Shown here one piece after another: positions 27,545-29,056 of a stretch of DNA of 37,392 nucleotides. The notes beneath the pieces were generated by a model. The model searched no databases and was not told where the DNA came from. It saw only the letters and a program-made list of their open reading frames with translations. Within the stretch, counting starts at the first letter, position 1; each line of letters begins with the position of its first letter. Source of the DNA: a virus; IMG/VR virus record IMGVR_UViG_3300037479_000222, positions 1-37,392 of that record. One strand, given 5' to 3'. The position numbers and the translations under genes are program-made.

Positions 27545-29056
27545 TTAGTTCTCAATTCCCCGACTTGTCAGCCGGTATCGGCCCCCTCGAAACACAAGTC
27601 CGCCTTTGCCATCGGCATAAAGCGTTGGCCTGTGGCCTGATTCCTCGCCCATGTGGTGAAACCAAATTGTTGGGCCGTAGCCGAGATGGGGCTTCGATTC
27701 GTCGTATTCGATTTTCTTGACCTGGCCGAAGCTCCGCGCTGGACCGTCAATCAAATTCGCCCCGGTGAGTGAGCCGATATGAAGTTTCCCGGTTGTGTCG
27801 GCGAGTAAAACGGCAGAGCCGTGAATGGGCTTGATAGTCCCTTTTTCCGTTGTGATTGAGACAAGACGCCCGAGCTTGGCGAACTTTCCAGACGGCGCGG
27901 ACTTCGGGAGAAAGACATCTCTTTCCCCTCCGACTCTTCCAGCGAATGTTTTTCTGATTGATTCAGCCGAGGGGTTGTTTCTCTTACGCCCTCGCCTTTT
28001 GGCCTTCAATAAACCTGAGCTTTTCTTGATCGCTCTGCTAGCAAGTCGTGAAGTCGTCTTCTTGCGTCTCGCAACCATTGATCTTCTGCGAGCCGTCGAA
28101 GAAGCTTTTCGTTTTGCCGAGACTTTTTTCTTTGAACGAGTCCTACGGGGTTGACGGCCAGTTTCACCCGCAGCGCTAGGGCTGTAATCCGTAGCCGACC
28201 GAATGGGATGGAATGTTCCTGAAGCATCGTAGAAGCCTTCACTGATATTGCGTTTTCTTTTCAGCCTCTTTCCTGTTGAAGTCGTTCGTCTGAGAGACCG
28301 ACTGGCAAGGCTTTTTCGCGTGGCCTTTCGAGAAGAGACTTTTCTTTTATGTGAAGCGGTGGCTGTCGCTTTACGCTTCGTGGCTTTTGCTCTTTTGCTT
28401 CGTGATGGTCTTTGGCCTTCGCTGTAATCACTACTTGCTCTGATCGGGTGAAAACCTGAAGCGTCATAGAAACCCATCTCGACATTTTTTCTCCGAGATT
28501 TATTGCGCTCTCGTTTCGCGTAGACCAACCCTGTGTGTTTATCGAGGTAATAGCCACTCGATACGCTCACCGTCCCTCGCCCCTGCACGAAAGTTTTCTT
28601 TCCAACCTGCCAGCCCTGCGGCGTTTTCTTGGCCTGGCCTTTGATAACGAGGTCTATGTATTTGTTCCTGATCTTGCGTCTCACTGGATTCAGCGCCTCC
28701 GCTCCCGCTCCAAGAATTTGCGCTCCCGCGCTGAGAGCGCCGCGAGTAAAGCCCTTTAGCGCTCGGCCTGTTTTCTTCAGGGCTGTTTTGCCTTTTGATT
28801 TAGGGTTTCTTTTCATAACGCTCACTGCGTTGTAGTAATTGCTCCCGATCTTGACCATGAGCTTGCGTTGCTCAGGTTTCAGCGATTGAGGCCAGTCGTG
28901 ACGATGGAGACTTACAATTCCCTTTTCGTTCAGCTTGACCAAGACTTTCTTTACTGTCGCTTTCGGATAACCAACGGCCTTGATCACGCGAGAGACTTCA
29001 GCCACGCCGTTCCCAATAGCTTTCAAGATCACTTGCTCTTGATCGGTCAGTTTCAT
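27545..29056 (-). CDS. Very basic putative virion DNA-binding protein, 503 aa: N-terminal wHTH-like domain, two FYDASG-FHPIR repeats with K/R/S/T tracts, globular C-terminal domain
   Basis: ATG at 29056 forms an ATGA overlap with the upstream stop (the track ORF starts at 29164). It begins MKLTDQEQVILKAIGNGVAEVSRVIKAVGYPKATVKKVLVKLNEKGIV. The repeats are GFYDASGFHPIRASSDYS and GFYDASGTFHPIRSATDYS. Confidence 0.75.
   Translation of the reverse strand: MKLTDQEQVILKAIGNGVAEVSRVIKAVGYPKATVKKVLVKLNEKGIVSLHRHDWPQSLKPEQRKLMVKIGSNYYNAVSVMKRNPKSKGKTALKKTGRALKGFTRGALSAGAQILGAGAEALNPVRRKIRNKYIDLVIKGQAKKTPQGWQVGKKTFVQGRGTVSVSSGYYLDKHTGLVYAKRERNKSRRKNVEMGFYDASGFHPIRASSDYSEGQRPSRSKRAKATKRKATATASHKRKVSSRKATRKSLASRSLRRTTSTGKRLKRKRNISEGFYDASGTFHPIRSATDYSPSAAGETGRQPRRTRSKKKVSAKRKASSTARRRSMVARRKKTTSRLASRAIKKSSGLLKAKRRGRKRNNPSAESIRKTFAGRVGGERDVFLPKSAPSGKFAKLGRLVSITTEKGTIKPIHGSAVLLADTTGKLHIGSLTGANLIDGPARSFGQVKKIEYDESKPHLGYGPTIWFHHMGEESGHRPTLYADGKGGLVFRGGRYRLTSRGIEN

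What the first reader, a model, noticed from the sequence alone, without database searches (positions are those of the whole stretch)
27545..29056. 503-aa protamine-like protein: wHTH head, two FYDASG-FHPIR repeats each followed by a K/R/S/T tract, and a conserved-looking C-terminal domain
The protein has three recognisable parts. After MKLTDQEQVILKAIGNGVAEVSRVIKAVGYPKATVKKVLVKLNEKGIV (winged-helix-like) it becomes extremely basic. Two copies of (K/R)(K/R)N(V/I)..GFYDASG(T)FHPIR(A/S)..DYS are each followed by about 55-75 residues made almost only of K, R, S, T and A. The last about 110 residues (..GKFAKLGRLVSITTEKGTIKPIHG..WFHHMGEESGHRPTLYADGKGGLVFRGGRYRLTSRGIEN) look globular. It is encoded just upstream of the Arg-rich membrane protein and the capsid candidate. 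It is the best candidate for a genome-condensing core protein, functionally comparable to adenovirus core proteins or archaeal virus nucleoproteins. Ser/Thr-rich basic tracts also suggest regulation by phosphorylation.
Basis: partly seen in the sequence, partly recalled or inferred. Interest (0 to 1): 0.65.

Follow-up and report, generated by a model that had tools for sequence, protein, structure and literature searches.

The report
Polybasic DNA-binding protein of uncultured virus
A real, strongly conserved 503-residue protein (net charge +87) sits in the particle-building genes of an undescribed circular 37-kb bacterial virus-like element that has no DNA-packaging motor, so it most likely coats and compacts the viral DNA; this is inferred, not shown.

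Summary
The gene is on the minus strand (27545-29056) and encodes 503 aa, 55 kDa, pI 11.4, net charge +87.

The C-terminal domain has no structural neighbour in PDB or BFVD and no Pfam, PHROG or NCBIfam match. The two FYDASG-FHPIR motifs are beta-hairpins, each followed by a basic helix, and the repeat is significant (z=17).

The C-terminal domain defines a large family: 1524 clusters at 50% identity, always C-terminal, nearly always behind K/R-rich sequence. The gene order is fixed: transglutaminase-like, membrane proteins, this gene, an Arg-rich membrane protein, a 276-aa protein. In sister lineages the hairpin-plus-basic-tail unit and the C-terminal domain are separate genes, so this protein is a fusion.

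The window is a complete circular 37,265-bp element with an integrase, a primase-helicase, a lytic transglycosylase and a single/double-barrel protein pair. It has no packaging ATPase and no relative among sequenced phages or plasmids.

Best reading (about 0.5): a virion-internal protein that condenses and tethers DNA. Presence in particles is untested. I found no support for regulation by phosphorylation.

The parts
27545..29056 (-). Complete CDS: 503 aa, 55.4 kDa, pI 11.4, net charge +87
   Evidence: Start codon confirmed by homologue N-termini and the ATGA overlap with the upstream gene.
28817..29056 (-). Residues 1-80: winged helix-turn-helix head
   Evidence: AlphaFold pLDDT 94-98. Foldseek PDB hits are MarR-type regulators, TFE-alpha and Sso10a, E 4e-3 to 7e-2. 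Pfam TrmB is sub-threshold, E 9e-4, 19.4 bits against a 25.6 cutoff. Present in 57 of 120 homologues.
28502..28678 (-). Residues ~127-185: small beta-rich domain, seven short strands, ending in a degenerate hairpin GYYLDKHTGLVYAKR
   Evidence: pLDDT ~95. The enclosing 86-190 segment has a match in 116 of 120 homologues, some covering only part of it; the 127-185 domain itself was recovered 124 times among 245 family proteins. Consensus Y.DLVI.G.AKKTP.GW.VG.KTF. Similarity to Sso7d or Cren7 is not supported: hhalign probability 2% and 7%.
28262..28501 (-). Residues 186-265: repeat unit 1, a beta-hairpin (RKNVEMGFYDASGFHPIRASSDYS) plus a basic helix
   Evidence: Strands 195-198 and 201-204, helix 219-253. 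Tract is 44% K+R. Internal repeat z=17.
27977..28261 (-). Residues 266-360: repeat unit 2, a beta-hairpin (KRNISEGFYDASGTFHPIRSATDYS) plus a basic helix
   Evidence: Strands 274-276 and 282-284, helix 309-356. Tract is 40% K+R. All 90 strict hairpins in the family are followed by a tract of at least 25% K+R, median 38%.
27545..27976 (-). Residues 361-503 plus stop: the family-defining C-terminal beta domain. It starts at the near-invariant N361-P362 and ends at a conserved C-terminus, GI(E/V)N
   Evidence: pLDDT 92.5, pTM 0.87. 18 invariant columns. 1524 representative clusters at E<=1e-3; the domain is at the extreme C-terminus in 149 of the 150 hits listed. No Foldseek neighbour in PDB (best E 0.63, TM at most 0.22 when normalised by the query) or in BFVD (best E 0.1).
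26721..27527 (-). Next gene and probable partner: Arg-rich membrane protein, net +48. It has an N-terminal RRNPVNPVNP-type basic region and two hydrophobic segments. Homologue alignments suggest the true start is Met22
   Evidence: It follows the target homologue directly in 7 of 7 loci, and again in L009, L010 and L011. In L014 an Arg-rich membrane protein sits one gene further downstream and was recognised by eye only, with no blastp hit.
25843..26673 (-). 276-aa protein, the most conserved protein of the block. It is the last gene before a terminator-like hairpin
   Evidence: 52-88% identity in five loci and 32-33% in two more distant ones. No hit in Pfam, PHROGs, NCBIfam or PDB.
25784..25814 (-). 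Terminator-like hairpin (13-bp stem, 8 G-C pairs, then a T-run) directly after the 276-aa gene
29053..29724 (-). Upstream gene: 223 aa, N-terminal Cys cluster, C-terminal membrane anchor. Its stop codon overlaps the target's start codon
31645..32247 (-). First gene of the block: transglutaminase-core (papain-like fold) protein. It is conserved at the head of this module in the sister lineages L011 and L014 and, at sub-threshold score, in L013
   Evidence: Pfam PF01841, E 5e-16. Also seen.

Best explanation
The protein is a virion-internal protein that condenses DNA and tethers it, in an uncultured, probably temperate and probably tailless, membrane-containing bacterial dsDNA virus with a circular 37,265-bp genome.

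Proposed mechanism (all steps inferred, none shown):
1. The N-terminal two-thirds carries several DNA-binding modules: a winged helix, a small beta domain, and two hairpin-plus-basic-helix units. Together they carry about +80 net charge. They bind the genome with little or no sequence specificity and neutralise and compact it.
2. The conserved C-terminal beta domain is not itself basic (+6 here, negative in sister lineages). It acts as the assembly handle, either by self-association or by docking onto a capsid or membrane component.
3. The next gene product has an Arg-rich tail on a membrane anchor and would tie the same DNA to the internal membrane.
4. No packaging ATPase is encoded. The shell and membrane would therefore assemble around this pre-condensed nucleoprotein, rather than DNA being pumped into an empty shell.
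For: Shown:
1. A real, selected gene with three confidently folded domains and a significant internal repeat.
2. The C-terminal domain defines a family of 1524 clusters at 50% identity. It is C-terminal in 149 of the 150 hits listed. Among the 240 family members retrieved, the N-terminal parts are K/R-rich: median 26% K+R, median net +62, only 2 of 240 below 18%. Their length and module content vary freely, from 161 to 946 aa, while charge is conserved. This is what is expected of an electrostatic DNA binder.
3. Fixed position in a co-oriented gene block with overlapping stop and start codons: transglutaminase-like, membrane-anchored proteins, this gene, Arg-rich membrane protein, 276-aa protein, terminator, single-barrel 157 aa, double-barrel 355 aa, and so on to a lytic transglycosylase.
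4. The 157-aa protein matches both halves of the 355-aa protein (hhalign probability 97.4 and 96.7, E 1.5e-11 and 3.5e-10). A single-barrel/double-barrel pair is the pattern of penton and major capsid proteins.
5. The only Walker-A motif in a real gene is in the primase-helicase. No ATPase family hit in any other ORF of 100 aa or more that was scanned, and the gaps between scanned ORFs hold only ORFs under 125 aa apart from one 152-aa ORF opposite the gene strand.
6. Rosetta-stone evidence. In sister lineages a 78-112-aa protein made of hairpin plus basic tail, and a separate non-basic protein carrying the C-terminal domain, lie in the same module (L014: adjacent genes; L013: about 5 kb apart)..
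7. The window is a complete circle (127-nt terminal overlap). Two relatives are listed in IMG/VR as viral genomes of 35.5 and 39.7 kb.

From the literature:
- Double jelly-roll viruses without a packaging ATPase (Odin group, FLiP) have been proposed to encapsidate without a motor (PMC5894146).
- Adenovirus packs 35 kbp with several hundred copies of basic core proteins (PMC6755088).
- Ascovirus P64 is a 64-kDa, pI 12.2 virion DNA condenser (PMC6163548).
Against: - There is no direct evidence that the protein is in particles, or even that particles exist. No structural protein of the block matches any known capsid, portal or packaging family.
- In sister lineages the C-terminal domain sits in acidic or neutral proteins (net -5 and -14). 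Its own function therefore need not concern DNA.
- A winged-helix head is more typical of regulators than of core proteins.
- The C-terminal domain has conserved polar residues (D420, Y451, K455, H467, D482). These could form an active or binding site.
- Adenovirus VII itself is dispensable for packaging, according to the abstract of PMC6755088. So 'basic core protein' does not automatically mean 'needed for condensation'.
Confidence: 0.5

Rival explanations
1. A DNA-escort or protection protein. It is packaged on the genome and enters the cell with it. Its main role is after entry: shielding incoming DNA from restriction, CRISPR or nucleases, or steering early transcription through the winged helix. 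This would resemble adenovirus VII on incoming genomes or T4 internal proteins, rather than compaction as such.
For: The same positional and compositional evidence as the main explanation. The optional winged-helix head (57 of 120 homologues) fits an accessory, fast-evolving function. Module content is extremely variable, as is common for arms-race proteins.
Against: No PADLOC or anti-defence test was run. Nothing distinguishes this from the main explanation in silico. Short forms with only a basic arm plus the C-terminal domain (161-250 aa) suggest a generic core role.
Confidence: 0.15
2. A non-structural nucleoid-associated protein or regulator. It is made in the infected or lysogenic cell and either compacts or silences host or viral DNA, or organises replication and partition of the circular episome. 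It is not packaged.
For: A MarR/TrmB-like winged helix. H1-like architecture, as in bacterial nucleoid proteins. The element carries integrase, primase-helicase and DnaJ-domain genes and could persist as an episome.
Against: The gene is embedded in, co-oriented with and translationally coupled to membrane and barrel-protein genes, far from the replication and lysogeny genes. The winged helix is missing in about half of the family, while the C-terminal domain and basic region are nearly universal.
Confidence: 0.12
3. The element is not a virus but a plasmid or integrative element. The block encodes a membrane or cell-envelope apparatus, and the protein is its DNA-coating or DNA-transfer component.
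For: No known capsid, portal, terminase or packaging ATPase was detected. Lytic transglycosylase, transglutaminase-like and membrane proteins also occur in transfer systems.
Against: No relaxase, VirB4/VirD4-type ATPase or other transfer-system family was found in any ORF scanned. No match in 72,556 plasmids. Genome sizes are tightly distributed at 30-40 kb. There is a single/double-barrel paralogue pair. IMG/VR lists relatives as viral.
Confidence: 0.1
4. The C-terminal domain is an enzyme, such as a nuclease, a peptidase or a DNA- or protein-modifying activity, and the basic region merely delivers it to DNA.
For: Invariant or near-invariant D420, H426, Y451, K455, H457, H467, E471 and D482 among closer homologues.
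Against: H426 and H457 are lost in more distant members, and the GEE motif is replaced in one subgroup. No match to any enzyme family or fold. Many of the invariant residues are Gly, Pro and Leu, which is typical of a structural scaffold.
Confidence: 0.07

Closest known systems
Adenovirus core proteins VII, V and mu
   Same: Highly basic proteins that coat a ~35-kbp dsDNA genome inside an icosahedral shell (PMC6755088). The genome here is about the same size, 37.3 kb. Protein V is thought to link the core to the shell (abstract of PMC10081844), which is the tether role proposed here for the C-terminal domain.
   Different: No sequence or family relationship. Adenovirus does encode a packaging ATPase (my own knowledge); none was found here. 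Here a single 55-kDa multi-domain protein is involved rather than several small ones. Processing by a protease is unknown here. The host is bacterial.
Ascovirus P64 family of large cationic virion DNA condensers
   Same: An unusually large (64 kDa, pI 12.2) virion protein with a structured domain plus a basic region that condenses genomic DNA (PMC6163548). The protein here is 55 kDa with pI 11.4 and has repeated basic units.
   Different: P64 belongs to eukaryotic insect viruses. The domain order is reversed, with the basic region C-terminal in P64. No homology was detected by the family scans, and direct sequence comparison was not done.
Linker histone H1/H5 and bacterial H1-like proteins (chlamydial Hc1/Hc2)
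   Same: The architecture is a winged-helix globular domain plus a long tail rich in K, A, S and T that is thought to become helical on DNA. This comparison is from my own knowledge of the family. Fold and composition were tested here.
   Different: No hit to the Linker_histone Pfam family. The nearest folds are MarR, TFE-alpha and Sso10a, not H5. The tracts are rich in R as well as K. The extra beta domain, the hairpins and the family-defining C-terminal domain have no counterpart in H1.
N-terminal basic arms of small-virus capsid proteins, and phiX174 protein J
   Same: A positively charged segment attached to, or working with, a shell-associated beta domain neutralises the genome in viruses without a packaging motor (my own knowledge). 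The short family members, with a ~95-aa basic arm plus the C-terminal domain, look most like this.
   Different: Those genomes are a few kb of ssDNA or RNA. Here the C-terminal domain shows no jelly-roll match and no similarity to the element's own barrel proteins.
ATPase-less double jelly-roll viruses (Odin group, FLiP)
   Same: Prokaryotic viruses with a double-barrel capsid protein and no packaging ATPase, proposed to encapsidate without a motor (PMC5894146).
   Different: The Odin group has the smallest genomes among the double jelly-roll viruses, and FLiP has an ssDNA genome. This element is 37 kb. The double jelly-roll fold is not verified here. No polybasic core protein came up for them in the passages I searched.

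Membership tests
Linker histone H1/H5 | Globular domain belongs to the Linker_histone family (Pfam PF00538) | tested here: not met
   A Pfam scan at E<=0.1 returned only TrmB, HTH_Cmi2_C and Penicillinase_R, all below their cutoffs. The top Foldseek hits are MarR, TFE-alpha and Sso10a.
Linker histone H1/H5 | Winged-helix domain joined to a long basic tail rich in K, A, S and T | tested here: met
   Winged helix at 1-80, pLDDT 94-98. The tracts are 40-44% K+R, with the rest mostly S, T and A. This is a resemblance in architecture only.
Protamines / protamine-like proteins | Small protein made mostly of Arg (or Arg plus Lys) | tested here: not met
   503 aa with three folded domains. K+R is 24% overall and 40-44% only within two tracts.
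Adenovirus core proteins (VII, V, mu) | Sequence membership in the adenoviral core protein families | tested here: not met
   No such Pfam family at E<=0.1. No PDB sequence hit.
Adenovirus core proteins (VII, V, mu) | Present in the virion core, bound to the genome | not testable with these tools
   This needs particle proteomics. Only gene position supports it.
Ascovirus P64 family | Large, very basic virion protein with tandem basic repeats | tested here: met
   55.4 kDa, pI 11.4, two repeat units, z=17, against 64 kDa and pI 12.2 for P64. This is an analogy only.
Ascovirus P64 family | Homology to P64, including its N-terminal cysteine-containing domain | not tested
   No P64 sequence was compared directly. 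No family hit of any kind.
MarR/TrmB-type winged-helix regulators | Score above the family threshold, and the dimerisation helices flanking the winged helix | tested here: not met
   TrmB scored 19.4 bits against a 25.6 cutoff. The folded head is only ~80 aa, and Foldseek TM normalised to the targets is 0.3-0.56. The fold class is shared; family membership is not shown.
Sso7d / Cren7 SH3-like chromatin proteins (for the 130-182 beta domain) | Detectable profile similarity to Sso7d/Sac7d or Cren7 | tested here: not met
Double jelly-roll viruses (Bamfordvirae), for the element as a whole | Major capsid protein with two jelly-roll barrels, plus a single-barrel penton protein | tested here: inconclusive
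   The 157-aa protein matches both halves of the 355-aa protein (probability 97.4 and 96.7). The fold itself was not predicted or compared. No PDB sequence hit.
Double jelly-roll viruses (Bamfordvirae), for the element as a whole | FtsK/HerA-type genome-packaging ATPase | tested here: not met
   The only Walker-A motif in a real gene is in the primase-helicase. No ATPase family in the other ORFs scanned. The gaps between scanned ORFs hold only ORFs under 125 aa, apart from one 152-aa ORF opposite the gene strand.

The most novel reading that the evidence does not exclude
A large, widespread and so far undescribed lineage of bacterial viruses (30-61-kb circular or integrating genomes, probably hosted in part by Acidobacteriota) builds particles without any packaging motor. 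Instead, it first condenses its dsDNA into a 'viral chromatin' with dedicated polybasic proteins. These are this modular protein, which is anchored through a C-terminal domain of novel fold, and an Arg-tailed membrane protein. A membrane and a barrel-protein shell then assemble around the condensed DNA. This would be a bacterial counterpart of adenovirus or polyomavirus nucleoprotein cores.
Probability: 0.3. Interest if true: 0.85.

Novelty: new variant of a known kind. Interest (0 to 1): 0.62.

Why it matters
Bacterial dsDNA viruses are generally thought to pump naked DNA into preformed shells with an ATPase motor. Protein-condensed genomes are known mainly from eukaryotic and archaeal viruses.

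If this protein is a core condenser, it gives a second, motor-free route to packaging a 37-kb dsDNA genome in bacteria. That would make questions about co-assembly, internal pressure and DNA delivery testable in a new system.

Independently of function, three things stand:
- The C-terminal domain is a confidently predicted fold with no detectable structural neighbour. It defines a family of more than 1500 clusters that no database names.
- The hairpin-plus-basic-helix unit is a new, mobile DNA-binding-like module. It occurs both fused, as here, and as stand-alone 80-110-aa proteins.
- The whole element has no relative among 50,697 sequenced phages or 72,556 plasmids. It therefore marks an unexplored group of mobile elements in metagenomes.

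Tried and rejected
- Plus-strand reading of the coordinates: full of stops.
- Longer TTG start at 29164: rejected from homologue N-termini.
- Family assignment by Pfam, PHROGs, NCBIfam, PDB sequence (single sequence and profile), GenBank phages and PLSDB plasmids: nothing except a sub-threshold winged helix.
- Foldseek of the full model: only winged-helix hits were listed. Hits to the other domains, if any, were below the 50 rows shown.
- Foldseek of the C-terminal domain against PDB and BFVD: no credible neighbour.
- C-terminal domain against the element's own 157-, 355- and 276-aa proteins, and against itself for internal repeats: no relation.
- The 276-aa protein against the barrel pair: no relation.
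- Mid domain against Sso7d and Cren7: not supported. The local similarity of GLFKDPETGKYFRHK in Cren7 to the hairpin motif remains only a lead.
- Idea that genomes lacking the fused winged helix encode it as a separate upstream ORF: not supported in L002, where the upstream 93-aa ORF is an acidic coiled-coil-like protein. It could not be checked for the 81-aa ORF in the contig of P0010, because no DNA was available.
- Tandem DNA repeats under the basic tracts: none.
- tRNA genes as attachment sites: none.
- Walking to remoter homologues with a profile of distant C-terminal domains: only 7 hits, all with the same architecture.
- Literature searches for this lineage, for the FHPIR motif, and for polybasic core proteins in bacterial tailless viruses: nothing relevant.
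- Sigma-70 promoter scan of the block: none found, so transcription start sites remain unknown.
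Full report
OBSERVATION

The ORF is real and lies on the minus strand at 27545-29056. The plus strand of the same interval is full of stops.

The ATG at 29056 is the true start. 57 homologues begin with MKLTDQEQ or a near variant, and this ATG overlaps the TGA of the upstream 223-aa gene as ATGA, which points to translational coupling.

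The product is 503 aa, 55.4 kDa, pI 11.4, with 13% K, 11% R and net charge +87. The two tracts after the motifs are 44% and 40% K+R, and the remainder is mostly S, T and A.

The two FYDASG(T)FHPIR motifs are at residues 195-206 and 274-286. The two ~80-95-residue units align with score 166 against 48 +/- 7 for shuffled sequence, z=17. The hairpin codons differ at synonymous positions, so this is an old duplication maintained at the protein level. There is no DNA tandem repeat under the tracts.

ANATOMY

AlphaFold2 with a 103-sequence alignment gives three confident folded domains:
- a winged helix-turn-helix at 1-80, pLDDT 94-98;
- a C-terminal domain at 361-503.

Modelled alone, the C-terminal domain reaches pLDDT 92.5 and pTM 0.87. 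It consists of an N-terminal helix and about ten strands.

The FYD...FHPIR motifs are beta-hairpins. The basic tracts are predicted as long helices (219-253 and 309-356) at moderate confidence. The mid domain ends in a third, degenerate copy of the hairpin, GYYLDKHTGLVYAKR.

Foldseek of the full model lists only winged-helix proteins: MarR-type regulators, TFE-alpha and Sso10a. This agrees with a sub-threshold Pfam TrmB match.

The C-terminal domain has no credible structural neighbour:
- in PDB the best hit has E 0.63 and query-normalised TM is at most 0.22;
- in BFVD the best hit has E 0.1.

It also has no sequence match in Pfam, PHROGs, NCBIfam or PDB.

A remembered resemblance of the mid domain to Sso7d and Cren7 was tested with hhalign and is not supported, at probability 2% and 7%.

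THE FAMILY

The whole protein finds 194 homologues, all unnamed metagenomic proteins. Many are on contigs of 30-40 kb. Among the best 120:
- the C-terminal domain is present in 119;
- the 86-190 segment has a match in 116, in some covering only part of it;
- the hairpin unit is present in 63;
- the winged helix is present in 57.

A profile of the C-terminal domain, searched against 1.84 billion representative proteins, finds 1524 clusters at E<=1e-3 and 170 at E<=1e-30. In 149 of the 150 hits listed the domain ends at the extreme C-terminus; P0234 carries a short basic extension after it.

Among the 240 retrieved members, the regions in front of the domain vary from about 20 to 800 residues and are mosaics of different small modules. 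They are almost always basic: median 26% K+R, median net +62, and only 2 of 240 below 18% K+R.

All 90 strict hairpins in the set are followed by a tract of at least 25% K+R, median 38%.

One further signature is a six-fold excess of the dipeptide Asn-Pro: 1057 observed against 176 +/- 12 in shuffles. The usual context is (K/R)(K/R)(K/R)-N-P, often at module boundaries. N361-P362 at the start of the C-terminal domain is nearly invariant. The same RRNP(VNP) motif recurs in the next gene product.

ROSETTA-STONE EVIDENCE

Searching with the hairpin region alone finds stand-alone proteins of 78-114 aa. They consist of a short N-terminal part, then (R/K)KNVEMGFYDxxGxFHPIRASSDYSxxRAGE, then a basic tail.

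- In a 30.9-kb contig (L014), such a 78-aa gene lies directly after a 237-aa gene. That 237-aa product ends in the C-terminal domain (hmmsearch E 3e-14) but is not basic (net -5).
- In a 61-kb contig (L013), a 112-aa hairpin protein (net +32) follows a transglutaminase-like gene. A 433-aa acidic protein (net -14) carries the C-terminal domain about 5 kb downstream.

The window protein is therefore a fusion of parts that are separate genes of the same module elsewhere. This implies that the parts work together, and that the C-terminal domain has a role separable from charge.

CONTEXT

Bases 1-127 are identical to 37266-37392. The window is therefore a complete circular, or terminally redundant, genome of 37,265 bp.

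It encodes:
- a tyrosine integrase, a second tyrosine recombinase, a DNA methyltransferase, a DnaJ-domain protein and a PrimPol-helicase;
- a minus-strand block from about 32.2 to 21.3 kb. This block has no PHROG hit for the ten ORFs between 30.9 and 22.0 kb that were scanned. It starts with a transglutaminase-core protein and ends with a lytic transglycosylase. It contains several membrane-anchored proteins.

The gene order (transglutaminase-like..., 375 aa, 223 aa, target, Arg-rich membrane protein, 276 aa, ~80 aa, 157 aa, 355 aa, 203 aa..., lytic transglycosylase) recurs in every related contig examined, including distant short-form members.

A strong terminator-like hairpin follows the 276-aa gene.

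The 157-aa protein matches both halves of the 355-aa protein, at hhalign probability 97.4 and 96.7. This is a single-barrel/double-barrel paralogue pair, as in penton and major capsid proteins. The jelly-roll fold itself was not verified.

The only Walker-A motif in a real gene is in the primase-helicase. No ATPase family appears in the other ORFs scanned. The gaps between scanned ORFs contain only ORFs under 125 aa, apart from one 152-aa ORF opposite the gene strand. A few further ORFs of 100-123 aa were not scanned and are too short for a packaging ATPase.

There is no relative among GenBank phages for the target, the 276-aa protein or the 355-aa protein, and none among plasmids for the C-terminal domain. 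IMG/VR lists two relatives as viral genomes of 35.5 and 39.7 kb. Among species-representative genomes, only two MAG contigs carry the family, one from Blastocatellia. A second Blastocatellia MAG was found through NCBI. This suggests Acidobacteriota as one host group.

INTERPRETATION

The best-supported reading is that this is a packaged protein that condenses and tethers DNA. Four points support it:
- Charge is conserved while sequence and length are free.
- The gene is fixed between membrane proteins and the most conserved proteins of a particle-type module.
- It is followed by a membrane protein with an Arg-rich tail.
- The element lacks a packaging motor.

As simple arithmetic, the genome carries 74,530 phosphate charges. 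400 copies of this protein would supply about 35,000 positive charges. That is the same order as the adenovirus core: 500-800 copies of VII, 150 of V and 100-300 of mu on 35 kbp (PMC6755088).

Motor-free encapsidation has been proposed for the ATPase-less Odin-group and FLiP viruses (PMC5894146). A large cationic virion condenser of similar size and pI is known from ascoviruses (PMC6163548).

All of this is inference. Nothing here shows particles, incorporation or compaction. I put this reading at about 0.5.

The alternatives are:
- a packaged escort or protection protein acting after entry (0.15);
- a non-structural nucleoid or regulatory protein (0.12);
- a non-viral element (0.10);
- an enzyme delivered to DNA (0.07).

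No kinase or phosphatase domain was found.

COMPARISON AND NOVELTY

The protein works like adenovirus core proteins, ascovirus P64, linker histones or the basic arms of small-virus capsid proteins. It fails every membership test for these families that could be run here.

It is best classed as a new variant of a known kind (viral DNA-coating basic proteins). It is built from a winged helix, a new hairpin-plus-basic-helix module and a C-terminal domain without structural neighbours. It belongs to an undescribed lineage of bacterial elements.

Six literature searches found no description of the lineage, the motif or a comparable bacterial-virus protein.

Noticed in passing
window 1-127 and 37266-37392: Exact 127-nt terminal direct repeat, of the kind assemblers leave on circular molecules. 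The window is a complete circular (or terminally redundant) 37,265-bp genome.
   Followed up: partly
window 24945-25418 (-) and 23873-24940 (-): The 157-aa protein is homologous to both halves of the adjacent 355-aa protein (hhalign probability 97.4 and 96.7). This single-barrel/double-barrel paralogue pair resembles penton and double jelly-roll capsid proteins. The fold was not verified, and there is no hit in PDB, Pfam or PHROGs.
   Followed up: partly
whole window: No packaging ATPase. The only Walker-A motif in a real gene is in the PrimPol-helicase (13989-15977). There is also no terminase, portal or HK97-type capsid family. The element has no relative among 50,697 phage or 72,556 plasmid records.
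   Followed up: yes
window 26721-27527 (-): Arg-rich membrane protein, net +48. It has repeated RRNPVNPVNP(T/S)RRRR motifs in front of two hydrophobic segments. It follows the target gene directly in nearly all relatives; in L014 it is one gene further downstream. Homologue alignments suggest the start is Met22 rather than the first ATG.
   Followed up: partly
target family (249 proteins) and window 26721-27527: The dipeptide Asn-Pro is six-fold enriched (1057 observed against 176 +/- 12 expected), usually as (K/R)(K/R)(K/R)NP at module boundaries. It could be a helix N-cap signal or a processing site. Asn-Pro autocleavage is known from reovirus mu1 (from memory). Unexplained.
   Followed up: partly
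window 31645-32247 (-); L011, L013, L014: A transglutaminase-core (papain-like fold) protein heads the module in the 30-kb sister lineages and, at sub-threshold score, in the 61-kb one. It could be a maturation protease or a Gln-Lys cross-linker. The neighbouring 223-aa and 375-aa membrane proteins carry Gln-rich tracts, and the target is Lys-rich.
   Followed up: no
window 25784-25814 (-): Strong terminator-like hairpin (13-bp stem, then a T-run) directly after the 276-aa gene. It splits the structural block into an upstream unit, which contains the target, and a downstream unit holding the barrel proteins, variable proteins and the lysis enzyme.
   Followed up: no
window 32464-33876 (+): A 470-aa acidic protein (net -23) with no family hit is transcribed divergently from the structural block. 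A homologue sits on the opposite strand next to the transglutaminase-like gene in L002, L004, L006, L008 and L011 (23-36% identity). Similar-sized opposite-strand genes sit there in the P0010 contig, L013 and L014, but homology was not shown. Its role is unknown; it could be a chaperone for the polybasic proteins.
   Followed up: no
window 29724-30851 (-): A 375-aa protein with an acidic N-terminus rich in G, D, Y and F, then a Pro-rich linker, then repeated CPTG...C.P.P cysteine motifs, then a C-terminal membrane anchor and a basic tail. Homologues were found in five relatives (L001, L002, L006, L008, L009).
   Followed up: no
L013 10001-10339, L014 10001-10237; proteins P0250-P0259: Stand-alone 78-114-aa proteins made of the GFYDxxGxFHPIR hairpin plus a basic tail occur in sister lineages of 30 and 61 kb. 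There the C-terminal domain sits in separate, non-basic proteins (L014 9268-9981; L013 15140-16441).
   Followed up: yes
window 2371-3507 (-) and 19926-20498 (+): Two tyrosine recombinases, a 378-aa integrase and a 190-aa Xer-like protein, in a circular element with no tRNA gene. The lifestyle (integrated or episomal) and the attachment site are unknown.
   Followed up: no
window 10456-11526 (+): A 356-aa protein with a DnaJ (J) domain, E 3e-23, in the replication/early region. This is unusual cargo for a small mobile element.
   Followed up: no
window 35546-35585 and 35954-35993: A 40-nt direct repeat at 80% identity that includes a GGAGG ribosome-binding site and a start codon. It lies upstream of two small plus-strand ORFs, which are probably paralogous gene starts.
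   Followed up: no
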